UHGV virus genome: UHGV-0137073 | Source of the DNA: a virus | Length of the DNA stretch: 42,824 nucleotides | Reading direction: 5' to 3' (one strand) | In this document: positions 1 to 32,369 of the stretch, in pieces | How positions within the stretch are numbered: position 1 is the stretch's first letter | Layout of the letters: each line of letters begins with the position of its first letter | Notes under the pieces: generated by a model | Database searches by the model: none | Told to the model about the DNA's origin: nothing | The model's input: the letters and a program-made list of their open reading frames with translations, nothing else | Program-made: the position numbers and the translations under genes

Positions 1-55
1 ATGGAGCTTAACGTAGTGAGAAGTTCAACCACCTGGTCTGACATCGGGACCACAT

Positions 56-99
56 TGATGCGCCGCGCGATAAATGCACTCTATCTTGTGCGATAAATG
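56..99 (+). repeat. Left terminal repeat of Mu-like element (putative transposase binding boxes)
   Basis: TGAT(56-59)-N9-GATAAATG(69-76)-N15-GATAAATG(92-99); same architecture in inverted orientation at 37063-37106. Confidence 0.65.
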
Positions 100-133
100 G
101 CATCCACGCGGCGTTTCATTATTTGAAAAAGAA

Positions 134-706
134 TTACATTTCAGGTTGCGTTATGACAGTCCCAACAGGGTGGTAGCGGTAGATCGTTGACAGTCCAATA
201 TCATAGATAATTGCCAGCCGCTTTCTGTCATACCCTTTCTGGAGCAATCTTGCGATCTGCTCATGCTGCTCCTTCGTCAGTTTCGGGCGACGTCCTCCAA
301 CTCTTCCTTGTGCTCGCGCAGCAGCCAGTCCTGCCAGCGTGCGCTCAACTATCAGTTCACGCTCCATTTCTGCCAGTGCACCCATCATATGAAAAAAGAA
401 CCTTCCCATCGGAGTGCTGGTATCGATTGAATCCGTCAGACTGCGAAAATTGACACCTTTTGCGCGTAGCTCTTCTGTGAGAGCAATGAGGTGTTTCATT
501 CTTCTACCCAACCGATCCAGCTTCCAGACCACCAATGTATCCCCTCTTTTAAGGCACTTTAAAGCGCGTTTCAGGCCTGGTCGTTCCGACTTGGTTCCGC
601 TCATTTTGTCCTCAAAAATCTGTTCACATCCTGCGCACATTAATGCATTGCGTTGCAAATCTGTGTTTTGGTCATTTGTTGACACACGTATGTAGCCAAT
701 CAGCAT
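134..706 (-). CDS. Serine DNA invertase, Gin/Pin/Cin/Hin family
   Basis: Translation from internal ATG gives MLIGYIRVSTNDQNTDLQRNAL..., near-identical to the Mu Gin N-terminus as recalled; the ORF extends upstream to 835 but the family start is the MLIGY methionine. Confidence 0.9.
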   Translation of the reverse strand: MLIGYIRVSTNDQNTDLQRNALMCAGCEQIFEDKMSGTKSERPGLKRALKCLKRGDTLVVWKLDRLGRRMKHLIALTEELRAKGVNFRSLTDSIDTSTPMGRFFFHMMGALAEMERELIVERTLAGLAAARAQGRVGGRRPKLTKEQHEQIARLLQKGYDRKRLAIIYDIGLSTIYRYHPVGTVITQPEM

Positions 707-760
707 TAAAAATACTCCCTTTTGAGTGGTTAAAGTACTGAGATAATGTGGGGAGGATTT

Positions 761-786
761 GAGAGATAAACGTTGGTTTGGGGGAA
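761..786 (+). promoter_or_regulatory. Invertase crossover site 1 (gix/hix-like 26-bp site)
   Basis: Reverse complement TTCCCCCAAACCAACGTTTATCTCTC resembles hix/gix half-site TTC..AAACC around a central dinucleotide; sits at the 5' end of cassette A. Confidence 0.6.
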
Positions 787-1281
787 GGCTCTGCACTGCC
801 TGTTGGTGTGCCTGTTCCATGGCCCACCGCCACACCGCCAGCAGGCTGGTTAAAGTGCGACGGGCGCGCCTTTACAAAAGAACAATATCCTGTTCTGGCC
901 AGAGTCTACCCGACCCTCCGTCTTCCCGATTTGCGCGGTGAGTTTATCCGTGGATGGGACGACGGGCGCAAAGTTGATACGGGGCGTTCATTGCTAAGTG
1001 GTCAGGCTGCAACATTTATTCGTACAGCTTTGCAGGATTATTACGGTTACGATCTGAATACTAATGTCAAAGTAGGTATCGCTTTTGCTACTGCTGATTC
1101 TGTTATAACCGTTGGAAACCCAGCTAATCCTAAAGCAGGAAATAATAGCGATTATGTTCCTGCATCAGCAGATAACTCTATAACGGGTATTCAAAGGACA
1201 GCGGAGGATAATTTTACCGGGGCATGGATATCAATGCGCCCCCGCAATGTTGCGTTTAATTACATCGTAAGGGCCGCATAA
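778..1281 (+). other. Silent tail-fiber C-terminal cassette A (promoterless alternative receptor-binding segment)
   Basis: First ~68 aa (GEGSALPVGVPVPWPTATPPAGWLKCDGRAFTKEQYPVLARVYPTLRLPDLRGEFIRGWDDGRK) nearly identical to an internal stretch of the expressed tail fiber, then divergent, ending in conserved NYIVRAA. Confidence 0.75.
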
Positions 1282-1300
1282 AAACGTTGGTTTGGGGGAA
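1275..1300 (+). promoter_or_regulatory. Invertase crossover site 2
   Basis: Same conserved half-site as site 1 (..AAACGTTGGTTTGGGGGAA), directly repeated relative to site 1. Confidence 0.6.
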
Positions 1301-1765
1301 GGCTCTGCATTGCCTGTTGGTGTGCCTGTTCCGTGGCCCACCGCCACACCGCCAGCAGGCTGGTTACAGTGCAACGGAGCTACGTTCACCAAAGAACAAT
1401 ATCCTGTTCTGGCCAGAGTCTACCCGACCCTCCGTCTTCCCGATTTACGCGGTGAGTTTATCCGTGGATGGGACGACGGGCGCAAGATTGACGAGGGGCG
1501 TAAGTTGCTTTCATGGCAGAAAGGTACACTGGTCGGCGGTCATGACGATAACGATTCTTCGCTGGATATCTCGTACATGAGTAACGGAAATAATATTGAC
1601 TATGGCGGCGATAAGGTGTTTGCGGGGAATTACTGTAGCGATTATTTGTGGTACGCAATTCTGGGTGGAACAAACAGTCGCGCAAAAGCCGAATTAAACG
1701 GAGCATTCTTTAACATAACCCGCCCCCGCAATATCGCGTTTAACTATATCGTGAGGGCGGCGTGA
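1292..1765 (+). other. Silent tail-fiber C-terminal cassette B
   Basis: Same conserved leader as cassette A and the expressed fiber, different variable middle, conserved C-terminal NYIVRAA. Confidence 0.75.
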
Positions 1766-1771
1766 TACCGT

Positions 1772-2386
1772 TCAGCTGGCAAGTGCCAGTGGCGCTTCCG
1801 GCCAGCTGATTTCAGGTGCCGTGCTGATATCCAGTGCGTTCAGCTCGTCGATATAATCCAGCACGGCGTTCAGTTTTGCCGTTTCTTCTGGTGTCAGACT
1901 GCGACCAGCACGCAGTTTGAGGTTGATAAGATCGACGGACGCCATCGCCTGTTTCACCCGTTGCTGGCGTTGCTGTCTGGCAACCTCCAGTTCTGCGGCT
2001 CGCTGCCGTTCAGTATCGGTTACCCACGCCTCACCGTTCCAGGTATCCCATGGCGTGGCCGGCTGTTTTGTGGTGGTGTCCGCCGGGTAATCACCCGGTT
2101 GGGTAATCAGAACGGGGTTACCGTTCTCCGTGCTGTATACCGTCTCGCCGCGGTGATCAGGCACATGCTCCCACCCGTTCAGCGTGGCAGTCCGGCAAAC
2201 CACGTAACCCGAAATTGCCTCCGGCGGTGCATCGGCGCACGAATGTGCCGGAGTACCCACCCCAAGGGCGAGATACTCCACAGAGGATGAGGTGTATTCC
2301 CGGGTTTCCTCGTCATAGTGATATACAGTGATCTCGCCCGCTACAGTGGCGATACCGTTTTCATCCAGAACTGCAGTGTTACTCAT
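1772..2386 (-). CDS. Tail fiber assembly chaperone (Tfa, Mu U / P2 G-like)
   Basis: Immediately downstream of the tail fiber gene with overlapping start/stop; acidic C-terminus ...LDYIDELNALDISTAPEISWPEAP typical of Tfa proteins. Confidence 0.7.
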   Translation of the reverse strand: MSNTAVLDENGIATVAGEITVYHYDEETREYTSSSVEYLALGVGTPAHSCADAPPEAISGYVVCRTATLNGWEHVPDHRGETVYSTENGNPVLITQPGDYPADTTTKQPATPWDTWNGEAWVTDTERQRAAELEVARQQRQQRVKQAMASVDLINLKLRAGRSLTPEETAKLNAVLDYIDELNALDISTAPEISWPEAPLALAS

Positions 2387-3555
2387 TAAACTGCCCTCAC
2401 AATGTAATTAAGTGCAATGCTACGGGGTCTGACAGTGATACCCTTCGCATACCCGCTTCTGATAGAGGTCAGAATAGTAGCCTGCATACCATTGTCTGAC
2501 ATTGCCACGACAGGATCGCTGAATGTTGTCCCGTCCGGCATTTTAAAGCTGCCCTCACGAAGGTCTGTAATGGAATCTTCATTGTTGAATCCCATGCCGA
2601 CTATCCCCGAGGTTCCCGTAGTGTCCTGGTTATAATAATCCAGCATTGCTGTTCTTAACAGCGTTGCCCCTTGTGCGGACAGCAACTTACGTCCTGTATC
2701 AACTTTGCGCCCGTCGTCCCATCCACGGATAAACTCACCGCGTAAATCGGGAAGACGGAGGGTCGGGTAGACTCTGGCCAGAACAGGATATTGTTCTTTT
2801 GTAAAGGCGCGCCCGTCGCACTTTAACCAGCCTGCTGGCGGTGTGGCGGTGGGCCACGGAACAGGCACACCAACGGGTAGCGCCGAGCCTTCTCCTAAAC
2901 CAAGGTAATTGAGGACATCTTTTATACTGCCCTTAGCGATAATAGCGCGACCAATAGCTGTAAGGGTTGCCAGCGCTGCGCGGTCTGCTCCGGTAAAATA
3001 AGGCAACCGATCTGCTGCAGTGGCAAGTCCTGCCAGAGCAGTGAGCGTGGCATCTGCCGGTTGTTTTCCGTTTGCCAGATCGTATGCAGCCTTGACCGCT
3101 TTCGGTGTGGCGGCCTCAGTTTCTGATTGACTGTCCGTGGCACTGCTCAGCTGTACGGTGCCTTTTGCCGTCAGCGAGGCAGCAGGCACTCCCGTTATCT
3201 GACTCCACGGGTGAGTGTGACTGACGGGTGCCTTGCCGGCTGCAAGGTCGTATGCAGCCTTGACGGCTTTTGGTGTGGCGGCCAGCGTTTCAGAGGTGCT
3301 GTTGGTGGCACTGCTCAGTTGGGTGAACCCCTTAGCTGTCAGTGTCGCGTCCGGGTGGTTACGGGAACGTACGTGTTCAGCCAGTGACTGTGCGGCTTCC
3401 TCCGTTTTTTTCTTCAGCCATTTCGTCCTGTTTGCCAGTTGCCGGGGGGCTCGATTTGATATCCCGTCAGCACCACCCAGAACCGGATCTGATGTCTCCA
3501 GTTGATAGATTTTTTCTTCCCACTTTTCTGTTTCATTCAGGTTTCCCATAATCAA
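2386..3555 (-). CDS. Tail fiber protein (constant N-terminal part plus currently expressed variable C-terminus)
   Basis: Two tandem ~36-aa fiber repeats (TAKG..QLSSAT.S.SET.AATPKAVKAAYDLA); contains crossover site 3 and the conserved cassette leader. Confidence 0.85.
   Translation of the reverse strand: MIMGNLNETEKWEEKIYQLETSDPVLGGADGISNRAPRQLANRTKWLKKKTEEAAQSLAEHVRSRNHPDATLTAKGFTQLSSATNSTSETLAATPKAVKAAYDLAAGKAPVSHTHPWSQITGVPAASLTAKGTVQLSSATDSQSETEAATPKAVKAAYDLANGKQPADATLTALAGLATAADRLPYFTGADRAALATLTAIGRAIIAKGSIKDVLNYLGLGEGSALPVGVPVPWPTATPPAGWLKCDGRAFTKEQYPVLARVYPTLRLPDLRGEFIRGWDDGRKVDTGRKLLSAQGATLLRTAMLDYYNQDTTGTSGIVGMGFNNEDSITDLREGSFKMPDGTTFSDPVVAMSDNGMQATILTSIRSGYAKGITVRPRSIALNYIVRAV
2890..2915 (-). 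promoter_or_regulatory. Invertase crossover site 3 (inverted relative to sites 1 and 2)
   Basis: TTCTCCTAAACCAAGGTAATTGAGGA on the + strand, close to hixL TTCTTGAAAACCAAGGTTTTTGATAA; lies in the codons for NYLGLGE of the tail fiber. Confidence 0.65.
3067..3342 (-). repeat. Tandem in-frame repeat inside the tail fiber gene (two ~108-bp units)
   Basis: Near-identical nucleotide blocks ...gtcgtatgcagccttgac(c/g)gct..ggtgtggcggcc... at ~3067-3174 and ~3235-3342. Confidence 0.6.
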
Positions 3556-4130
3556 CTGCTCCCGTGGTTATAACTGCCATCATGGATGGCGGTATTGTTA
3601 TAGCGAATGGCCACAGACTGATACTCCAGGCTGGCCAGATGGCAGCGGGCCGGTGCAAATGCAGCGAGCGTCTGACGCAGCATCGCGGCCTGATCGTTAG
3701 TAATGGGCTGTTTCAGAATAACGCGATAAACCGCCCAGGCGGCTGCATCTCCATGAACAAACAGTCCGTTATAGCTGCGATTGCCGTCGTAACTGAGACG
3801 ACCTGTGCCTTCAATCAGATCCACTTCACCAAAGCCAAAACGGCGGATAACTTCCCGGATTGACCACGGCGTCCCTTTATACCGGTGTAGTTCGATGGCT
3901 GCTTTTATAAGCATGCGGCGAACATCGTCCGATTCCGCCAGCTCCCAGCCATCGCCAGACAGTGAGAACTGCTCGCCCAGCCATGGCAGCGCAGAACTGT
4001 CGACGATATCGACGAGAAAGACCATCAGTACGCTCAGGTCGATGTTATCCAGCCGCCCTGCCAGTCTTCCCAGCGTCCTGAGACTGATATCACCCTCAAG
4101 CGGTGGCGGGAGTTGTAATGGCTCAGTCAT
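3552..4130 (-). CDS. Baseplate/tail protein, P2 gpI-like (Mu gp48-like)
   Basis: Position between gpJ-like and tail fiber genes; ATG at 4130 overlaps the upstream stop (GTG alternative at 4142). Confidence 0.6.
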   Translation of the reverse strand: MTEPLQLPPPLEGDISLRTLGRLAGRLDNIDLSVLMVFLVDIVDSSALPWLGEQFSLSGDGWELAESDDVRRMLIKAAIELHRYKGTPWSIREVIRRFGFGEVDLIEGTGRLSYDGNRSYNGLFVHGDAAAWAVYRVILKQPITNDQAAMLRQTLAAFAPARCHLASLEYQSVAIRYNNTAIHDGSYNHGSS

Positions 4131-5226
4131 CAGACACTCCACTCATGTTAAGTGTGATCGCCGTACAGTTTGCCCATTCGTTTTCTGCCACCACCCTCAG
4201 TGCCGGTGTCACCAGTTCAACCTGGTACACCCCGGAAACGGACAATGCACTGATAATCTGGCTGGGGACAATATCACGCCCCAGCGTGGCGGCACGTGAT
4301 GCCACCCAGTTCTGTATGGCGCTGTTAGCGGCATCTTTTACAGACCTGGCATCCTGATCACGATAGATCGTAATCCTGGCTTCAATGGTGTAATCCACCT
4401 TCACTGGTGTTTTAGCCCGCACTGTATCAGTGAGTGGCCTGACTTTCTCATCAGAGCAGAAACTCTCTACCAGCGTGAGAACACCGCCGTCCGGCAGACC
4501 GGTACTGAGCAGCGGATACAGATCTACGGTCCCGGGAACCGGGGAAAGCACAGCAACATCGACAATGTTGGGATGGGCCTGCATGGCATGAAAGCGGTAT
4601 GCGCCACGGCTTCCGGCATTGGTGAATGACTCCGGGGCCAGCCTGATACGCTCCCGGAGCCTGTCATCGTCTTCCTGTTCTGAACCGCCGGAACTGGCCG
4701 TCAGATTGCTCACCAGCAGGTCGACGTTATCAATCTCATCGAGTAACTGACTGACCTGCGCAGGTTGCCAGCCGTTACCAGCGGTACCGGGTTCGGTACA
4801 GGTGGACGTGACATTGACCAGCAGCAATCCGGCCTTCAGTACCACATCTGTATCGGTGGCAAAAATAACGCTGTCGGAAGCGCTGACGCGGGTGCCTGCC
4901 GGGATCAGCACATCAATGGTCAGTGCCTCATCCACAGAGAACTGAAGTGTGGTGGTGGCAGGCTGCGCGGCAAGGCGGTATACACCAACCAGTTCTCCGA
5001 GGTAATCAATCATCGGCTCTCGTGAAAAGGCGACCAGATTCTGCTTTGCTGCCTCCTGTACCGCAACCCTGACCAGCATTTCGCGATAGGCCCACAGATC
5101 AATCAGCAGACGTTCTGCCTGTGCCGGGTACAGCGTTTTGCCGGTATCCGCTTCATACTTCGCAATCATTTCTGCCGTGATTTTGTCGGCATCGCGTTCA
5201 ATAAAATCGGGTTCTGTCAGCGCCAT
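4123..5226 (-). CDS. Baseplate protein J-like (P2 gpJ / Mu gp47)
   Basis: 367 aa, conserved position after gpW-like gene, family resemblance by recall. Confidence 0.7.
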   Translation of the reverse strand: MALTEPDFIERDADKITAEMIAKYEADTGKTLYPAQAERLLIDLWAYREMLVRVAVQEAAKQNLVAFSREPMIDYLGELVGVYRLAAQPATTTLQFSVDEALTIDVLIPAGTRVSASDSVIFATDTDVVLKAGLLLVNVTSTCTEPGTAGNGWQPAQVSQLLDEIDNVDLLVSNLTASSGGSEQEDDDRLRERIRLAPESFTNAGSRGAYRFHAMQAHPNIVDVAVLSPVPGTVDLYPLLSTGLPDGGVLTLVESFCSDEKVRPLTDTVRAKTPVKVDYTIEARITIYRDQDARSVKDAANSAIQNWVASRAATLGRDIVPSQIISALSVSGVYQVELVTPALRVVAENEWANCTAITLNMSGVSDD

Positions 5227-5564
5227 AGCAACTCCTGAGTCCGGGTCTGTCCGTCTGAGCCTTTCCAGCTCACCCGGAGCGTAAGATGTTCGCCGTCGAC
5301 GGCGGGTTTAACTGACATAAGCTGGCAGCGGGGCTCCCAGCGTCGGATGGCATCGACGGATTCGCGCACCACATGCGGAATGGCCCGGTCTACAGGCCAG
5401 TCGATATAAAGATGCAGATTGCTGCCGAACTCCGGGCGATGCGGGTCGCTGCCGCGGGGAGTCCGCAGGATAATTTGAATCGCCTGCCGGATATCATCCA
5501 GCCCCCGGACAATTTCGCCGGGAGCCTGCAGGGTCGGTTGCCAGAATACTGAGGTTGTTTTCAT
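5217..5564 (-). CDS. Baseplate protein, GPW/gp25-like
   Basis: 115 aa, ...IRQAIQIILRTPRGSDPHRPEFGSNL... typical of the gp25/GPW lysozyme-like fold. Confidence 0.7.
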   Translation of the reverse strand: MKTTSVFWQPTLQAPGEIVRGLDDIRQAIQIILRTPRGSDPHRPEFGSNLHLYIDWPVDRAIPHVVRESVDAIRRWEPRCQLMSVKPAVDGEHLTLRVSWKGSDGQTRTQELLWR

Positions 5565-5618
5565 GGGGGCAGTATTGCCCCCGTGCGGGAACGCTGATAT
5601 TAAAGGCGTTTAAAAAGC

Positions 5619-6215
5619 TCAGTGGGAGTGGTGGCTGGAGTTTTCGCCATCAGACAACATACTGCCCGTGGCATGGGCATTCCCTTTAATCTCGATATTG
5701 CCATGGATGGTCGCGGTAACACCTTCACCACCAGAACCCGCCATGCCTCCTTCGTAAATCAGCTTACCCCTGACACGCAGATCTCCGGTAAGTTCGGTTT
5801 CCGGTGCGTCAATCGTGGCTTTCTGTGTTTTCAATACCACATCAGCACCACACTCAATGACAATATGCTCAATGCCGCCCCGGATGATCAGAGTGTGCGT
5901 CTTCCGGTTGTAGCTGTACTCTGCACCATCAGCAAACCGGGTTCCCCGGATATTTTTGTCACTGAACGGTGGTTTATCGACGTCTGAATACACCGCGCCC
6001 AGAATAACACCATCCTCGCCGTTGGCATCGAGCAGCACCTCAACCTGCTCCCCCACGTCAGGGAGCCAGTAATCTTTGTTATCCTGGGTATTGCGCTGCA
6101 GCACGTTAAGCCAGTTTGTGCGCAGGTTATCGCATTCAGGCAGACGAACGCGGGCCTGAACCCTGTCGGCATCAACGGCACTGACCGTACCGACCTGACG
6201 AGTGACACCAGTCAT
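5619..6215 (-). CDS. Baseplate spike/assembly protein V-like
   Basis: 198 aa; N-terminal OB-fold-like region; position between gpD-like and gpW-like genes. Confidence 0.65.
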   Translation of the reverse strand: MTGVTRQVGTVSAVDADRVQARVRLPECDNLRTNWLNVLQRNTQDNKDYWLPDVGEQVEVLLDANGEDGVILGAVYSDVDKPPFSDKNIRGTRFADGAEYSYNRKTHTLIIRGGIEHIVIECGADVVLKTQKATIDAPETELTGDLRVRGKLIYEGGMAGSGGEGVTATIHGNIEIKGNAHATGSMLSDGENSSHHSH

Positions 6216-7384
6216 TTTTTCTTCTCTCTTATTACTGTGGACGTGCTGCCGTCCGGTTTATAGATGGTCAGCATCCGGGTTTTGCCGATTTTTTTACCTT
6301 TCTTCGCCTTGCCCTGTGTGATCGGCCCCCGTGCCACTTCCAGCTCTGTGGTGTAGCCGCTGTTACGGTCAAACGCATGGCGGGCAGTGGTTATGAGCCA
6401 TGGCCCGGATAACTGCCCAAAACCCACCAGTTCAATTTTGTTGCCTGCTGTCAGTTGAGGTGTTCCCGTCAGCGTCAGGGAGCCGTTCTGCTGGTATTCG
6501 TTATGTCTGGCCAGTGCTGAATCCGCTTTAATCCGGGCACTGTCCGGGTCGCTGACGCGGCTGTTAACTTTAAGTGAGTCAGCGCTGGTAACCTTACCAC
6601 CTTTGAGCTTTTTGTCGCTTTCACGGGTACCACCATCAGCTTCGTAGACGATCAGTTTTTTACTGCTGCTTTTCTGGTGTTTTACCTTTGCAGATTTATA
6701 GACCCGGTTGATGGTGTCACGCAGGGAAAAGCGGGCCACATCCTGCGGTTTTAACTGCCTGACCGGCTCCTGACTGCGCAGTGTGGCCAGATGAGAAAAA
6801 ATCAGCTGGTCACTGACCACTTTCACTGCATAACCATACTCGCTGGCCAGCCGGCGCAGAAAACCCACGTCGGTTTCAGCATACTGGGTCACCCGGTCGA
6901 TTCTGATGGACTCAATGCTGCCCACCAGTTTCAGCCGGTGCTTTCTGGCAATCCGCCCCGCAACAGCTGCCAGCGTGGTGTTCTCAAAACCACGACTGGT
7001 TTTAGTCCGCAGGGCACTGTTAACCGAGGTGGCCACCCCACGGATAGAAACAACGGAAGCGGGCGAACTCACTTCGATCTCGTCTATAGAGAACGTACCG
7101 CAGGACAGCAGCTTCTCGTCCTGATAGCCCATTTTCAGCGTCAGCGTGTCACCCTTGCCCGGATACCACTTATCCAGCCAGCGGCCATCGGTGTCGTCCA
7201 GCTCCACCTCAATGGTATCGGACTCATTTTTGATGTTATCGCTCCAGGTCACACGGGTGACATAAGGCGCGATATCAGAGGTGATGTTTTTCTGCAGATA
7301 CCACAGAGTGAACACCGGTGTCAGCACATCGCTGACGCCGGTTAACGCTGATGTGACTTGCGCAGTGCTGTTTATCTCAGCCAT
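6212..7384 (-). CDS. Tail/baseplate hub protein, P2 gpD-like (Mu P-like)
   Basis: 390 aa; position after gpX-like gene; family resemblance by recall. Confidence 0.65.
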   Translation of the reverse strand: MAEINSTAQVTSALTGVSDVLTPVFTLWYLQKNITSDIAPYVTRVTWSDNIKNESDTIEVELDDTDGRWLDKWYPGKGDTLTLKMGYQDEKLLSCGTFSIDEIEVSSPASVVSIRGVATSVNSALRTKTSRGFENTTLAAVAGRIARKHRLKLVGSIESIRIDRVTQYAETDVGFLRRLASEYGYAVKVVSDQLIFSHLATLRSQEPVRQLKPQDVARFSLRDTINRVYKSAKVKHQKSSSKKLIVYEADGGTRESDKKLKGGKVTSADSLKVNSRVSDPDSARIKADSALARHNEYQQNGSLTLTGTPQLTAGNKIELVGFGQLSGPWLITTARHAFDRNSGYTTELEVARGPITQGKAKKGKKIGKTRMLTIYKPDGSTSTVIREKKK

Positions 7385-26627: not shown

Positions 26628-27392
26628 ATGAAAATGAAGACATTACCCATCGTTCCATGGATTGGTGGCAAACGTCGCCTGGCAAAACACATCCTGCCGC
26701 TGTTTCCGGCGCATGAATGTTATGTGGAGCCGTTTTGTGGGGCAGCAGCGCTCTATTTTCTTAAGACACCCGGCAAGATCGAAGTCATCAATGATATCAA
26801 CGGTGAACTGGTGAATCTGTACCGGGTGGTAAAGCATCACCTGGAAGAATTTGTCCGCCAGTTCAAATGGGCGCTGGTCAGCCGTCAGATCTACAAATGG
26901 CTGCAGATCACCCCGGAAGAAACACTGACGGATATCCAGCGTGCGGCACGGTTCTACTACCTTCAGAAGCAGGCGTTTGGCGGCAAGGTGGCAGAGCACA
27001 GCTTCGGTACCTCCACCACATCCCCGCCACGCTTCAACCTGCTGCGTATTGAAGAAGAACTGTCAGCAGCACACCTGCGGCTTTCCAGAACAGTCATAGA
27101 ACACATGGACTGGCAACAGTGCATTGAGCGTTATGATCGTCCGCACACACTGTTCTACTGCGACCCACCGTACCTGGGTACGGAAGGCTATGGTGTGGAT
27201 TTTCCTGAAGGGAACTACTCGCGGCTGGCAGAGCTGGCCCGGTGCATCAGAGGAAAAATGATAATTTCGGTGAACGATATCCCACAGATGCGCGAGGTGT
27301 TCACTGGACTGAACATACAGACAGTGAACATCAACTACAGTCTGGCGGGGAAATCTACGCCGCGCCGTGAACTGGTAATCTGCAACTTCTGA
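26628..27392 (+). CDS. DNA adenine methyltransferase (Dam-like, D12 class)
   Basis: N-terminal AdoMet region PWIGGKRRL...FCGAAA and catalytic DPPY motif (CDPPYLGTEGYG). Confidence 0.85.
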   Translation: MKMKTLPIVPWIGGKRRLAKHILPLFPAHECYVEPFCGAAALYFLKTPGKIEVINDINGELVNLYRVVKHHLEEFVRQFKWALVSRQIYKWLQITPEETLTDIQRAARFYYLQKQAFGGKVAEHSFGTSTTSPPRFNLLRIEEELSAAHLRLSRTVIEHMDWQQCIERYDRPHTLFYCDPPYLGTEGYGVDFPEGNYSRLAELARCIRGKMIISVNDIPQMREVFTGLNIQTVNINYSLAGKSTPRRELVICNF

Positions 27393-29422: not shown

Positions 29423-31192
29423 ATGAATGCTGCCCTGACTGAACGACTGGTTTATGTCGCCCGCGCGGCACGTGACGCGGGGCATGGTAAACGCGGCGCA
29501 GTATACGACGCTGCCTGTGCTGAACTTGGCATGTCCCGCGCCACTCTGCTGCGCAGGCTGAAGGAGGTATCTGTGACTGATAAACGCAAAAAACGCGCCG
29601 ATGCCGGGCGCAGCGCCCTGACCCGCGACGAAGCCGCGCTGATATCTGCCACACTGCGTGAGGCCACCCGCAAGAACGGTAAGCGTCTCTATTCCATCGC
29701 GGATGCAGTGGAAACCCTGCGGGCTAACGGCTTTATATCCGCAGGCAGAACAGATGAAACCACCGGTGAGTTTTTCCCGTTGTCCGAAGATGCCATCAGC
29801 CGAGCCCTGCGTAACTATGGCCTGCACCCGGAACAACTGGATGCCCCTGCGCCGCATACCGAAGTGGCCAGTCTGCATCCCAATCATGTCTGGCAGATTG
29901 ACGCCTCACTCTGCACGCTTTACTACCTGAGCAATGGACATAAAGGGCTGCAGGTGATGGACAGCGCGAAGTTCTACAAGAACAAGCCCGCTAACCTTGC
30001 CCGTATCGCCAGTGACCGCGTGTGGAGTTACGAGATTACCGACCATGCCAGCGGCTGGATTTACGTTGAGTATGTGACGGGCGCGGAATCAGGTGAGAAC
30101 CTGTGTTCTGTGCTTATCAACGCCATGCAGGAGCGTGGCGGCGCAGACGTGCTGCACGGTGTGCCGAAAATACTCTATCTCGACCCCGGCTCGGCAAACA
30201 CCGCGGGTATGACGAAAAACATGTGCCGCTCACTGGGCATCGACCTGATAGCGCACAAGCCGCATAACGCCCGCGCCACCGGACAGGTGGAAAAGGCGCG
30301 GGACATTATCGAACGCAAGCTGGAGCCGGGTCTGAAGTTCCGGCCGGTTCACAGTCTGGAAGAACTCAACGCGCTGGCCGCGAAATGGCGCAGCCACTTT
30401 AACGCCACGGCTGTTCACAGCCGCCACGGTAAAACCCGCACGGATATCTGGCTGAAGATTACTGCTGAGCAGCTGAAAAAAGCGCCTTCCGTTGAGGTAT
30501 GTCGTGAACTGGCTGTGGCGGCACCAGAACTCCGCAAAGTCACGCCAAAACTTCGTGTCTCGTTCCGGGGCACTGAATTTGACGTATCAACGGTACCGGG
30601 CGTACTGGTTGGTGAAAAACTGATGATTACCCGTAACCCGTGGCGCAGCGATGTGGCACAGGTGGTTCTGACCGGTGAGGACGGCCACGAGACGTTCTTC
30701 CTGGTCGAAGAGGTCAGAAAGAACGAGTTTGGCTTTGCTGAAGGCGCGGCGGTATTTGGCGAAAGTTACAAAGCCCTGCCGGAAACCCCGGCGCAGATGG
30801 CGGCAAAAGAAACCGAAGCGCTGGTCACCGGTACAGACAACGCCGCAGATGCAGCTGCCGCACGCAAGGCGAAGGCGCTGCCGTTCGGCGGGCGGCTTGA
30901 CCCGTATAAACATATCGACGACACCACACTTCCGGCCTATATGCCGAAGCGTGGTCAGGCCTCTGACGTACGCGGGCCGCGCACTGAACAACGTCCCATG
31001 ACTTATGTGGAGGCCGCGAAAGCCCTGCGCGATAAGTTCAGCGCCAACGGCTTTACCTGGACGCCGGAACATTACCGCCAGTTAACGGCACAGTATCCGG
31101 ACGGCGTACCGGAAGCCGCACTGGATGAAGTCATGGCCACGCTGACCACGCCGGCCCGCAGCAGCGTTATCAGTATTGTTAACGGCAACTGA
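29423..31192 (+). CDS. DDE-type transposase (integrase catalytic core)
   Basis: Candidate DDE residues in HVWQIDAS, KILYLDPGSAN and TGQVEKARD; followed by a MuB-like ATPase. Confidence 0.8.
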   Translation: MNAALTERLVYVARAARDAGHGKRGAVYDAACAELGMSRATLLRRLKEVSVTDKRKKRADAGRSALTRDEAALISATLREATRKNGKRLYSIADAVETLRANGFISAGRTDETTGEFFPLSEDAISRALRNYGLHPEQLDAPAPHTEVASLHPNHVWQIDASLCTLYYLSNGHKGLQVMDSAKFYKNKPANLARIASDRVWSYEITDHASGWIYVEYVTGAESGENLCSVLINAMQERGGADVLHGVPKILYLDPGSANTAGMTKNMCRSLGIDLIAHKPHNARATGQVEKARDIIERKLEPGLKFRPVHSLEELNALAAKWRSHFNATAVHSRHGKTRTDIWLKITAEQLKKAPSVEVCRELAVAAPELRKVTPKLRVSFRGTEFDVSTVPGVLVGEKLMITRNPWRSDVAQVVLTGEDGHETFFLVEEVRKNEFGFAEGAAVFGESYKALPETPAQMAAKETEALVTGTDNAADAAAARKAKALPFGGRLDPYKHIDDTTLPAYMPKRGQASDVRGPRTEQRPMTYVEAAKALRDKFSANGFTWTPEHYRQLTAQYPDGVPEAALDEVMATLTTPARSSVISIVNGN

Positions 31193-31202
31193 GGAGGGAA
31201 AC

Positions 31203-32369
31203 ATGCTGGTACTGAAGCAGCAACTGAAAGAAGCCCGTATTCCACAGGCGGTGGTGGCGAGAGCTGTCGATGTTTCTGAGGCCACGCTGGCCCAGATTGT
31301 GAATCATAACGCGTGGCCCCGCACCAGCCCCGGAGAAGTGCGCCGGCGTCTTGCGTCCTGGCTGGAAAGTCAGGGGATTGATACAACGAAGAGTTTTGAT
31401 GCTGTACAGGGCGCGGCCACGCCCCGTACAGCGGGTACCACAGATAAAACGAGCCTCAGTGAGGAAGAGAATATGTTACTCAAAAAACAGGTGTTATTTC
31501 CAGCAACCAAAAAAGCGTTTGGTCTTTTCCGTGACCCGTTCGCCGACGAAGCCATGCAGGGTTCTGATGATGTGTTCACCACCCCGGATATTCGCTACGT
31601 GCGTGAGGCGTTGTACCAGACAGCCCGTCATGGTGGGTTTATGGCCGTCATCGGTGAGTCCGGTGCGGGTAAATCCACGCTGCGCCGCGACCTGACTGAA
31701 CGTATCAACCGCGAGAATGCGCCGGTAATTGTTATCGAGCCATACATCATCGCTATGGAAGACAACGATGTGAAAGGGAAAACCCTGAAGGCAGCAGCGA
31801 TTGCCGAAGCCATTATCAGTACCATCGCACCACTGGAAAGCATCAGACGCAGTCAGGACGCCCGCTTTCGCCAGTTGCATCGCGTCCTGAAAGACAGCAG
31901 CCAGGCGGGGTTCAGCCACGTTCTGGTGATTGAGGAGGCCCACAGTCTGCCCATTCCGACACTGAAACACCTCAAACGCTTTTTTGAGCTGGAGTCCGGT
32001 TTCAAAAAACTGCTGTCCATCGTGCTGATTGGCCAGCCGGAACTGGCGACAAAACTGTCTGAACGCAATATGGAAGTCCGTGAAGTCGTTCAGCGCTGTG
32101 AGGTGGTCGAACTTCTGCCTCTGGACAATAACCTTGAAGAGTTTCTGACGTTCAAACTGCAACGGGCCGGTAAACAACTGACGGACATTATGGACGCCAG
32201 CGCAGTGGATGCCATACGTGCCCGCCTGAGCAATCCGGGAAGTCATCGTAAAAATATGGTCAGCCTGCTGTATCCGCTGGCCGTCAGTAACCTGGTAATA
32301 GCCGCCATGAATCTGGCCGCTGAAATCGGGGTTCCACAGGTCAACGCTGACGTTGTCAAAGGGGTTTAA
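31203..32369 (+). CDS. Transposition helper ATPase (MuB / TniB-like AAA+)
   Basis: Walker A GESGAGKST, Walker B-like VLVIEEAH; GGAGGG Shine-Dalgarno before the ATG at 31203. Confidence 0.8.
   Translation: MLVLKQQLKEARIPQAVVARAVDVSEATLAQIVNHNAWPRTSPGEVRRRLASWLESQGIDTTKSFDAVQGAATPRTAGTTDKTSLSEEENMLLKKQVLFPATKKAFGLFRDPFADEAMQGSDDVFTTPDIRYVREALYQTARHGGFMAVIGESGAGKSTLRRDLTERINRENAPVIVIEPYIIAMEDNDVKGKTLKAAAIAEAIISTIAPLESIRRSQDARFRQLHRVLKDSSQAGFSHVLVIEEAHSLPIPTLKHLKRFFELESGFKKLLSIVLIGQPELATKLSERNMEVREVVQRCEVVELLPLDNNLEEFLTFKLQRAGKQLTDIMDASAVDAIRARLSNPGSHRKNMVSLLYPLAVSNLVIAAMNLAAEIGVPQVNADVVKGV

What the first reader, a model, noticed from the sequence alone, without database searches (positions are those of the whole stretch)
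134..3555. Three-site invertible tail-fiber cassette system (Min/shufflon-like) with only one assembly chaperone
A Gin-family invertase sits beside three 26-bp hix/gix-like crossover sites (761-786, 1275-1300 direct; 2890-2915 inverted). Each is followed by ~200 bp of near-identical sequence encoding a shared ~68-aa leader, then a different C-terminal receptor-binding segment. Only the segment now fused to the constant tail-fiber N-terminus (2386-2889) is expressed; cassettes A (778-1281) and B (1292-1765) are silent and promoterless. Classical Mu/P1 G/C segments carry two variable ends, each with its own chaperone. Here three alternatives share one tfa gene (1772-2386), which would be flipped out of the late operon whenever A or B is selected. 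All three cassettes end in the same motif RPRN(I/V)A(F/L)NYIVRA, which may be a common docking or intramolecular chaperone element. This implies a three-way host-range switch, and how the chaperone is supplied to A and B is unexplained.
Basis: partly seen in the sequence, partly recalled or inferred. Interest (0 to 1): 0.75.

Follow-up and report, generated by a model that had tools for sequence, protein, structure and literature searches.

The report
Three-way invertible phage tail-fibre switch
A prophage in this E. coli window uses a Gin/Pin-type DNA invertase and three crossover sites to swap among three alternative tail-fibre tips; the switch is real and demonstrably active, but this kind of system, and this prophage family in particular, has already been described.

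Summary
The locus holds an intact Gin/Pin-type serine invertase, three 26-bp pix-like crossover sites (two direct, one inverted), three collar-type fibre-tip cassettes with 228-274-nt near-identical leaders, and a single tfa gene. The switch is active: the same cassette set (98-100% identical) occurs in other complete E. coli genomes in all four isomers that three sites allow. In every isomer the exchange point maps to a 7-nt interval containing the central TT.

It is not new. Window sites 3 and 1 are letter-for-letter the crossover sites published for prophage Phi2 of E. coli ST131 EC958, where PacBio reads showed the inversion. A three-repeat, four-variant, three-C-terminus fibre switch was PCR-verified in EPEC E2348/69 in 2014. 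A Gin-dependent three-isoform switch was dissected in Enterobacter phage FRphi in 2026.

Cassette A has one isomer with tfa still in the operon. Only B is never co-oriented with tfa. The shared C-terminal motif is invariant across this tip family and also ends e14 StfE, whose partner TfaE is 59% identical to this Tfa. How B obtains Tfa remains unexplained.

The parts
134..706 (-). pin/gin-type serine DNA invertase (190 aa), intact, with Ser in the RVST motif
   Evidence: Pfam Resolvase + HTH_7. E 2e-93 to the Mu Gin structure 4M6F. 76% identical to e14 PinE. Same protein (WP_000904922.1) in relatives.
707..760 (.). spacer between the pin start and site 1; presumed pin promoter region; holds an extended -10-like TGAGATAAT at 739-747 on the + strand
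   Evidence: Read from the sequence. No sigma-70 match in the consensus scan. Promoter function not shown.
761..786 (+). crossover site s1 (pin-proximal), GAGAGATAAACG TT GGTTTGGGGGAA
   Evidence: Identical to the published EC958 Phi2 3' site. 20/26 match to the pinE-proximal pix site of e14.
775..1281 (+). silent fibre-tip cassette A (168 aa from GLGEG to stop): collar leader, variable middle, RPRNVAFNYIVRAA end
   Evidence: Pfam Collar. 100% identical copy fused to Sc in DA33135 and AVS0750.
1275..1300 (+). crossover site s2; its left half is the 3' end of cassette A
   Evidence: The left half CGCATAAAAACG is found joined to cassette C in CD306 and AVS0750.
1289..1765 (+). silent fibre-tip cassette B (158 aa), convergent to tfa with a 6-bp gap and no site between them
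   Evidence: Pfam Collar. Found fused to Sc as one contiguous 779-nt match at 98% in CD306 and other genomes. Intact in all alleles, pN/pS 0.13-0.38.
1772..2386 (-). single tail-fibre assembly gene tfa (204 aa); own GAGG Shine-Dalgarno; start overlaps the cassette C stop (TAATG)
   Evidence: Pfam Caudo_TAP. 59% identical to e14 TfaE. Relatives also carry Caudo_TAP_N.
2386..2901 (-). cassette C, currently fused to the constant part and so expressed
   Evidence: Carries right half-site GGTTTAGGAGAA wherever it sits.
2890..2915 (-). crossover site s3 at the constant/variable junction, TCCTCAATTACC TT GGTTTAGGAGAA on the coding strand
   Evidence: Identical to the published EC958 Phi2 5' site.
2902..3549 (-). 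constant N-terminal part of the tail fibre (Sc) with Phage_fiber_2 repeats; follows gpI/gpJ baseplate genes
   Evidence: Pfam Phage_fiber_2. Weak match to Mu S residues 110-153. 168-nt internal repeats.

Best explanation
This is the host-range switch of a Mu/BcepMu-like transposable prophage (window about 56-37106).

A Gin/Pin-type serine invertase cuts at the central TT of three 26-bp pix-like sites. One site (s3) lies at the junction between the constant tail-fibre N-terminus and its tip. The other two (s1, s2), in the opposite orientation, precede two promoterless tip cassettes. Inversions s3 x s1 and s3 x s2, and then s2 x s1 once s2 has been flipped, interconvert four isomers:
1. Sc-C, tfa>, <B, <A (the window).
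2. Sc-B, <tfa, <C, <A.
3. Sc-A, B>, <tfa, <C.
4. Sc-A, C>, tfa>, <B.

Each isomer fuses one of three complete T4-gp37-like collar tips in frame to the same shaft, so virions carry one of three receptor specificities. A is expressed in two of the four isomers.

The single TfaE-type chaperone gene travels with cassette C. It is co-oriented with the late operon in isomers 1 and 4 and inverted in isomers 2 and 3.

Shown here: the parts, frame conservation, all four isomers in nature, and the exchange point. Shown in the literature: inversion at these exact sites. Inferred: different receptor specificities, and that one Tfa serves all three tips through their shared C-terminal region. Not resolved: how Tfa is supplied in isomers 2 and 3.
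For: - Parts and repeats.
- All four isomers occur with 98-100% identical cassettes: the window, CD306 (L004), AVS0750 (L005), and DA33135 and AR_0015 (L006, L007).
- CD306 and DA33135 have 0 differences from the window in A, tfa and pin, at most 1 in B and at most 2 in C, yet are different isomers at different chromosomal sites.
- Left half-sites stay with their position and right half-sites travel with their cassette. This confines the exchange to TTGGTTT, which contains the central dinucleotide.
- EC958 and AR_0086 carry the prophage at the same aroA site as different isomers.
- EC958 Phi2's published crossover sites equal window s3 and s1, and PacBio reads showed the inversion (PMC4134206).
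- The four-variant logic was verified by PCR in EPEC (PMC4272514).
- The FRphi isoform ratio of about 50:25:25, abolished by deleting gin, is what four equally frequent isomers predict (PMC13418256).
- Invertase homology. Site similarity to e14 pix.
- Tip resembles the T4 gp37/gp12 tip.
- A TfaE-type chaperone accompanies collar tips in e14, Cronobacter and S. Typhi.
Against: - No experiment on this particular window. Its own population heterogeneity is unknown.
- The Fis enhancer was not tested.
- Receptor specificities of A, B and C are unknown.
- B can never be transcribed together with tfa from the late promoter. No sigma-70 promoter that would serve inverted tfa was found. If Tfa is essential, two of the four isomers should make poor fibres, which sits awkwardly with the conservation of B.
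- The AF2 model of the cassette is confident only for the collar and the last strand (mean pLDDT 56.5).
Confidence: 0.9

Rival explanations
1. Sub-question, Tfa supply (a): tips A and B fold, or fold well enough, without Tfa made in cis. Tfa would then be needed only for C or be merely helpful, so all isomers give infective virions.
For: - B is intact in every allele examined, with pN/pS below 1.
- B is fused to Sc in about 100 complete genomes.
- The single-tfa module [C tfa> <V] recurs in an unrelated S. Typhi prophage, so a cassette convergent to the only tfa is kept over time.
Against: - Collar tips of this family are normally followed by a tfa: e14 StfE-TfaE, both cassettes in Cronobacter, and HK106, whose match spans tail fiber and tail fiber assembly genes.
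- T4 gp37-type tips are known to need chaperones (established knowledge).
- The divergence counts are small.
Confidence: 0.3
2. Sub-question, Tfa supply (b): tfa is expressed whatever its orientation. The source could be a second promoter reading inward from the pin side (candidate extended -10 TGAGATAAT at 739-747, + strand), or transcription entering the phage right end from host DNA during transpositional replication. tfa has its own Shine-Dalgarno sequence.
For: - In both tfa-off isomers, tfa lies downstream of and co-oriented with whatever starts next to pin.
- An extended -10-like element is present in the 54-bp spacer.
- tfa has a GAGG sequence 7-8 nt upstream of its ATG.
Against: - The consensus scan found no promoter there.
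- The extended -10 was noticed post hoc.
- The S. Typhi single-tfa locus has a different, e14-like spacer.
- There are no expression data.
Confidence: 0.2
3. Sub-question, Tfa supply (c): Tfa is required and is made only in isomers 1 and 4. B-on virions and half of the A-on virions would then be fibre-defective, a tolerated cost of a reduced G-segment that lost its second tfa.
For: - Classical relatives have two convergent tfa genes (e14; Cronobacter), so the single-tfa form looks like a derived loss.
- In FRphi only one of three locked isoforms infected the tested host, although that may simply reflect receptor specificity.
Against: - It would make B useless, yet B and other cassettes in that position are intact and conserved.
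- In the two-cassette form, half of all progeny would be wasted.
Confidence: 0.3
4. The rearrangements come from RecA-dependent homologous recombination between the 230-nt leaders, not from the invertase.
For: The leaders are 88-91% identical over 228-274 nt, which is long enough for RecA.
Against: - In every isomer each cassette keeps its own leader from the first polymorphic base (position 6 after the TT).
- The flanking half-sites stay in place, so exchange is confined to 7 nt.
- Inversion in FRphi stops when gin is deleted.
Confidence: 0.03
5. Cassettes A and B are decayed remnants and the locus is frozen.
For: Some relatives are decaying. B36 has a 1-nt deletion in the centre of its pin-proximal site and a fragmented fibre gene. 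The S. Typhi copy has a 31-aa invertase stub.
Against: - A and B are full-length ORFs with all family-invariant residues.
- Both are found as the expressed tip in other genomes.
- pin is intact.
Confidence: 0.03

Closest known systems
Prophage Phi2 of E. coli ST131 EC958 (Forde et al. 2014, PMC4134206)
   Same: - Same prophage family and the same pin protein (WP_000904922.1).
- Its published 26-bp crossover sites are identical to window s3 and s1.
- Same cassette C and tfa, and also three sites and three cassettes.
- PacBio reads showed the inversion.
   Different: - The two silent cassettes are other alleles (143 and 154 aa, against A at 168 aa and B at 158 aa).
- It is inserted at aroA rather than inside a lambdoid prophage.
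- The paper lists only the two outer sites and describes a mirror-image layout. It does not discuss the middle site or the single tfa.
Three-inverted-repeat tail-fibre switch in a P2-like prophage of EPEC E2348/69 (Goldberg et al. 2014, PMC4272514)
   Same: - Three partly homologous repeats, two overlapping inversions (about 2.2 and 1.8 kb; here about 2.1 and 1.6 kb).
- Four coexisting variants and three alternative C-termini, verified by PCR.
   Different: - It sits in a different prophage.
- I could not retrieve that locus, so sequence relatedness and its number of tfa genes were not checked.
Gin-dependent tail-fibre 'shufflon' of Enterobacter phage FRphi (Nat Microbiol 2026, PMC13418256)
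   Same: - Three C-terminal isoforms at about 50:25:25, frozen by deleting gin.
- Only one isoform infects the test host, via FhuA.
- Related loci have up to six paralogs. The 50:25:25 ratio fits the four-isomer scheme found here.
   Different: - Different phage, with lambda-like regulation, and a different host.
- Chaperones are not mentioned in the paper.
- Relatedness of the tips was not tested.
e14 P segment / PinE of E. coli K-12
   Same: - PinE is 76% identical and TfaE 59% identical.
- StfE is a collar cassette about 50% identical, with the same GLGEGSALPVGVPVPWP start and RPRNIAFNYIVRAA end.
- The pix sites are very similar.
   Different: - e14 has two sites and two cassettes, each with its own tfa (tfaP, tfaE).
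- One e14 tip (StfP) is not a collar type.
Mu G segment / Gin and P1 C segment / Cin
   Same: - Invertase about 80% identical to Gin.
- The constant part has Mu-S-like fibre repeats.
- The switch sits at the right end of a transposable phage with the invertase just outside it.
   Different: - Mu and P1 have two sites and the S-U / S'-U' pairs.
- Here there are three sites, three tips and one U-like gene. There is no mom, and the early region is organised as in BcepMu.
Min multiple-inversion system of plasmid p15B; R64 shufflon
   Same: More than two crossover sites shuffle alternative 3' ends of one gene. Min uses a Din-family serine invertase on a fibre gene (from memory; Sandmeier et al. 1992, 1994).
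   Different: - Min has six sites and many isomers, with segments that combine.
- The R64 shufflon uses the tyrosine recombinase Rci on pilV, so this locus is not a shufflon in the strict sense.

Membership tests
Din-family (Gin/Hin/Cin/Pin) serine DNA invertase systems | Serine recombinase of about 190 aa with an N-terminal catalytic domain (Ser near position 10) and a C-terminal HTH | tested here: met
   Pfam Resolvase 3-135 and HTH_7 138-180. Full-length alignment to Gin 4M6F at E 2e-93, with MLIGYIRVSTNDQ conserved.
Din-family (Gin/Hin/Cin/Pin) serine DNA invertase systems | 26-bp imperfect-dyad crossover sites sharing a central dinucleotide, with at least one pair in inverted orientation | tested here: met
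   All three sites have central TT on the cassette-coding strand. s3 is inverted relative to s1 and s2. They are close to e14 pix and identical to the published Phi2 sites and their consensus table.
Din-family (Gin/Hin/Cin/Pin) serine DNA invertase systems | Inversion actually occurs, with exchange at the site centre | tested here: met
   Four natural isomers, with exchange confined to TTGGTTT. PacBio evidence for the same sites in EC958.
Din-family (Gin/Hin/Cin/Pin) serine DNA invertase systems | Fis-bound recombinational enhancer inside the 5' part of the invertase gene | not tested
   The first 240 nt of pin align well with pinE. No Fis-site analysis or functional test was done.
Mu G-segment-type fibre switch (Sc + Sv/U, Sv'/U') | Constant 5' fibre part fused in frame to alternative 3' parts by inversion | tested here: met
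   Synthetic Sc+A and Sc+B junctions are open in frame and exist in other genomes.
Mu G-segment-type fibre switch (Sc + Sv/U, Sv'/U') | Each alternative tip is followed by its own assembly chaperone inside the invertible segment | tested here: not met
   One Caudo_TAP gene for three cassettes, with 6 bp between the tfa and B stops. The classical two-tfa layout is seen in e14 and Cronobacter.
Multiple-inversion systems (p15B Min type) | More than two crossover sites acted on by one serine invertase, giving more than two isomers | tested here: met
   Three sites and four isomers observed.
Shufflon sensu stricto (R64) | Rci-type tyrosine recombinase acting on asymmetric sfx sites | tested here: not met
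   The recombinase is a serine resolvase/invertase.
T4 gp37/gp12-like collar receptor-binding tip | Phage Tail Collar domain followed by a distal excursion, within one C-terminal module | tested here: inconclusive
   Pfam Collar in all three cassettes. phmmer hits to gp37 2XGF (1e-13) and a short tail fibre (2e-14). Foldseek top hits are 2XGF and gp12. However, the model is confident only for residues about 10-55 and 161-168, and contact of the C-terminal strand with the collar could not be measured.
Tfa / Caudo_TAP tail-fibre assembly proteins | Conserved C-terminal Caudo_TAP domain, with the gene immediately downstream of a fibre tip | tested here: met
   Caudo_TAP 79-199 at E 3.5e-28. TAATG overlap with the cassette C stop. 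59% identical to TfaE.
Transposable (Mu/BcepMu-like) phages | Different chromosomal insertion site in each host; DDE transposase plus AAA+ partner; Mor-type activator | tested here: met
   Flanks in other genomes: yfaL, lom, aroA, ybaP, yehY, gspL and ybjC at the pin end; flgA, yfaV, clbG, gspL and yodD at the other end. rve and AAA_22 proteins. Mor annotated in relatives.

The most novel reading that the evidence does not exclude
One TfaE-type chaperone serves three different collar tips by recognising their invariant C-terminal region. Either it is expressed in both orientations, for example from an inward-facing promoter in the 54-bp pin/s1 spacer, or the B-type tip has become chaperone-independent. 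Either way, this would be a compact solution that lets cassette arrays grow (three or more, reportedly up to six) without duplicating chaperones.
Probability: 0.2. Interest if true: 0.45.

Novelty: new member of a known kind. Interest (0 to 1): 0.3.

Why it matters
The locus gives a clean, sequence-level demonstration of a three-state host-range switch in a widespread E. coli transposable prophage (ST131 and others). All isomers are captured in public genomes. That helps when annotating these regions, because the silent cassettes are routinely miscalled as genes or pseudogenes. It also helps when engineering phage host range.

The only open biology is modest. A tip that can never be co-transcribed with the sole chaperone gene is nevertheless conserved. 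Resolving how it folds would say something about how strictly Tfa proteins are required and how specific they are.

Tried and rejected
- Promoter and terminator scan of 1-3700. It found one promoter-like site, fewer than in shuffles and in an irrelevant place (1234-1205, - strand). It found nothing that would drive inverted tfa.
- Tfa against PDB sequences: no meaningful hit, including no hit to Mu U.
- The 34-aa C-terminal motif against PDB: no hit. The idea that the motif closes the collar domain therefore rests on the gp37 topology (from memory) and on a confident terminal strand in a poor model.
- AF2 monomer model of cassette A from a 29-sequence alignment: mean pLDDT 56.5, with the variable middle unreliable. 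Fold matches beyond the collar should not be trusted.
- Scan of genome contigs with the Pin protein returned only five loci, too few for a family census of cassette and tfa numbers. Two look-ups of encoding contigs partly replaced it.
- Comparison of the pin/s1 spacer across relatives to test the extended -10 idea. The spacers of e14 and S. Typhi are unrelated, so the comparison was uninformative.
- I did not estimate isomer frequencies across genomes. My junction queries bias the sample, and the state of a lysogen is not under selection.
- I could not retrieve the EPEC E2348/69 or FRphi loci for direct comparison.
- The left end of the prophage was not found by searching for an inverted repeat. 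It was located by BLAST break-points instead.

Full report
**Observation**

- ORF 134-706(-) is a 190-aa serine recombinase with Pfam Resolvase (E 8e-51) and HTH_7 domains. It aligns end to end with the Mu Gin crystal structure 4M6F (E 2e-93) and is 76% identical to PinE of e14.
- The three 26-bp sites, read on the cassette-coding strand, are GAGAGATAAACG TT GGTTTGGGGGAA (761-786), CGCATAAAAACG TT GGTTTGGGGGAA (1275-1300) and TCCTCAATTACC TT GGTTTAGGAGAA (2890-2915, opposite strand).
- Each site is followed by a leader that repeats at 88-91% identity over 228-274 nt.
- Cassettes A (775-1281), B (1289-1765) and the expressed cassette C (2386-2901) each contain a Pfam Collar domain. The constant part has Phage_fiber_2 repeats, and 1772-2386(-) is a Caudo_TAP assembly protein.
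- A crossover at the central TT keeps the frame...DVLNYL|GLGEGSALPVG....

**Is the switch active?**

Yes. I built Sc+A and Sc+B junctions in silico and searched 5,426 complete E. coli genomes. Both junctions exist. Fetching loci showed the same cassette set, 98-100% identical, in every arrangement that three sites allow:
- Window: Sc-C, tfa>, <B, <A, pin.
- CD306: Sc-B, <tfa, <C, <A, pin.
- DA33135 and AR_0015: Sc-A, B>, <tfa, <C, pin.
- AVS0750: Sc-A, C>, tfa>, <B, pin.

CD306 and DA33135 do not differ from the window in A, tfa or pin and differ by at most 1-2 bases in B and C. Even so, they are different isomers inserted at different chromosomal sites.

Cassette C carries a diagnostic right half-site, GGTTTAGGAGAA. 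A and B carry GGTTTGGGGGAA. In every isomer the right half-site travels with its cassette, while the left half-site (Sc side, pin side, or the A 3' end) stays where it was. This confines the exchange to the 7 nt TTGGTTT, which contains the central dinucleotide. That is the signature of a Din-family invertase, and it excludes homologous recombination within the leaders.

The two-cassette relative in CE10 has exactly the junction expected from an s1 x s2 deletion.

**What the parts are**

- The sites closely resemble the e14 pix sites.
- The cassettes are about 50% identical to e14 StfE. They share its GLGEGSALPVGVPVPWP start and its RPRNIAFNYIVRAA end. The Tfa is 59% identical to TfaE, StfE's partner.
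- In a 29-sequence alignment of cassette homologues, the RPR and NYIV residues of the C-terminal motif are invariant, as is much of the collar leader. The middle of the cassette varies.
- By sequence the tip matches the T4 gp37 tip (2XGF, 1e-13) and a short tail fibre. A low-confidence AF2 model (mean pLDDT 56.5; confident only for the collar and the last strand) again finds 2XGF and gp12 as top folds.
- In gp37 the chain runs out to the tip and returns to the collar (from memory, Bartual et al. 2010). The simplest reading is therefore that each cassette is one complete module. Its conserved ends form the collar and its variable middle forms the receptor-binding end.

**Context**

Homology to other genomes starts at window 56 and stops at about 37106. 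The flanking host genes differ in every genome. At the pin end they are yfaL, a lom-like gene, aroA, ybaP, yehY, gspL and ybjC. At the other end they are flgA, yfaV, clbG, gspL and yodD. The element encodes an rve transposase, an AAA+ partner and a D12 methylase, and relatives carry a Mor activator. It is therefore a transposable Mu/BcepMu-like prophage. Its fibre switch and invertase sit at the extreme right end, as in Mu. In this window it has landed inside a lambdoid prophage that encodes O, a cI-like repressor and RexA.

**What is already known**

- Forde et al. 2014 (PMC4134206) reported PacBio evidence for tail-fibre inversion in prophage Phi2 of ST131 strain EC958. They printed its crossover sites, TCCTCAATTACCTTGGTTTAGGAGAA and GAGAGATAAACGTTGGTTTGGGGGAA. 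These are identical to window s3 and s1.
- I fetched that locus. It has the same pin, tfa and cassette C, a third internal site and two other silent cassettes.
- AR_0086 carries the prophage at the same aroA site as a different isomer.
- Goldberg et al. 2014 (PMC4272514) verified by PCR a switch with three inverted repeats, four variants and three C-termini in an EPEC prophage.
- A 2026 study of Enterobacter phage FRphi (PMC13418256) showed three Gin-dependent isoforms at about 50:25:25, with different infectivity, and related loci with up to six paralogs. The 50:25:25 ratio is what the four-isomer scheme predicts.
- An ST131 preprint also confirmed switching by PCR in an 'Entero_P88'-labelled prophage. 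That is the label of one of my closest phage-database hits.
- The phenomenon, the architecture and this prophage family are therefore all on record.

**The chaperone question**

Because s2 lies between A and B, one A-on isomer (the AVS0750 type) keeps C and tfa downstream and co-oriented with the late operon, and tfa has its own Shine-Dalgarno sequence. Only B, which is convergent to tfa with 6 bp and no site between them, can never be co-transcribed with it.

Compatibility is not a problem:
- All three tips are of the StfE type with the same C-terminal region.
- TfaE-type chaperones (Caudo_TAP_N + Caudo_TAP) accompany such tips in e14, Cronobacter and S. Typhi.
- North et al. 2019 reported that the variable N-domain of Tfa binds the fibre's C-terminal region (from memory).

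Expression in the two tfa-off isomers is unexplained:
- The consensus scan finds no promoter.
- An extended -10-like TGAGATAAT at 739-747, pointing into the cassettes, is the only candidate, and I noticed it post hoc.
- B is intact in all alleles with pN/pS of 0.13-0.38 (small counts).
- The same [C tfa> <V] single-tfa module occurs in an unrelated S. Typhi prophage. A Cronobacter relative has the classical two-tfa layout.

I rate the three options about equally: a tip that does not depend on Tfa, orientation-independent tfa expression, and a tolerated defect. None is established.

**Verdict**

It is a new member (a different cassette set) of a known and recently well-studied kind. The single shared chaperone is a genuine but small loose end.

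Noticed in passing
window 56-37106 (flanks 1-55 and 37107-42824): The whole element is a transposable Mu/BcepMu-like prophage of about 37 kb, with an rve transposase at 29423-31192, an AAA+ partner at 31176-32369 and late genes on the - strand. It is inserted inside a lambdoid prophage. Positions 1-55 match a CUS-3-type integrase gene. The right flank encodes replication protein O, a cI-like S24 repressor and RexA. The target duplication is ambiguous: CACAT at 51-55 against CACAT at 37105-37109 or CATAT at 37107-37111.
   Followed up: partly
window 3065-3342: The constant fibre part contains 168-nt tandem units (Phage_fiber_2 repeats) whose copy number varies between genomes. The fibre is about 387 aa here, against 640-730 aa in CD306, AVS0750, DA33135 and AR_0015. 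Shaft length therefore varies by repeat gain and loss.
   Followed up: partly
L001 (E. coli B36) 2208-2233: The pin-proximal site has lost one T of the central dinucleotide (AAACGTGGTTT instead of AAACGTTGGTTT), and the fibre gene is annotated as pseudogene fragments. This is probably a locked, decaying copy.
   Followed up: no
L010 (Escherichia sp. MOD1-EC7003) 2-1056: At least three tandem silent collar cassettes, each preceded by a site, lie next to a pin homologue with 84% identity at a contig end. Larger arrays of the same design therefore exist.
   Followed up: no
L014 (S. Typhi GCA_001081025.1) 4876-6979: The same cassette C, the same tfa type and the 154-aa cassette of EC958 Phi2 sit in a prophage with different baseplate genes (Phage_Wedge1, Sheath_initiator). 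The invertase there is reduced to a 31-aa stub, and the locus is frozen in the tfa-inverted state. This is evidence that the single-tfa module moves horizontally.
   Followed up: partly
L009 (contig CAXORL010000041.1, labelled Moraxella osloensis): A 1,268-bp contig is 100% identical to this E. coli pin at protein level and also carries part of a cassette leader. This is most likely E. coli contamination in that assembly.
   Followed up: no
window 739-747 (+): The extended -10-like sequence TGAGATAAT lies in the 54-bp spacer between pin and site 1 and points into the cassettes. It would be placed correctly to transcribe tfa in the two inverted isomers, but it was noticed post hoc and is unsupported.
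   Followed up: partly
window 26628-27392 (+): A D12-class N6-adenine DNA methyltransferase is encoded in the early region of the transposable prophage.
   Followed up: no
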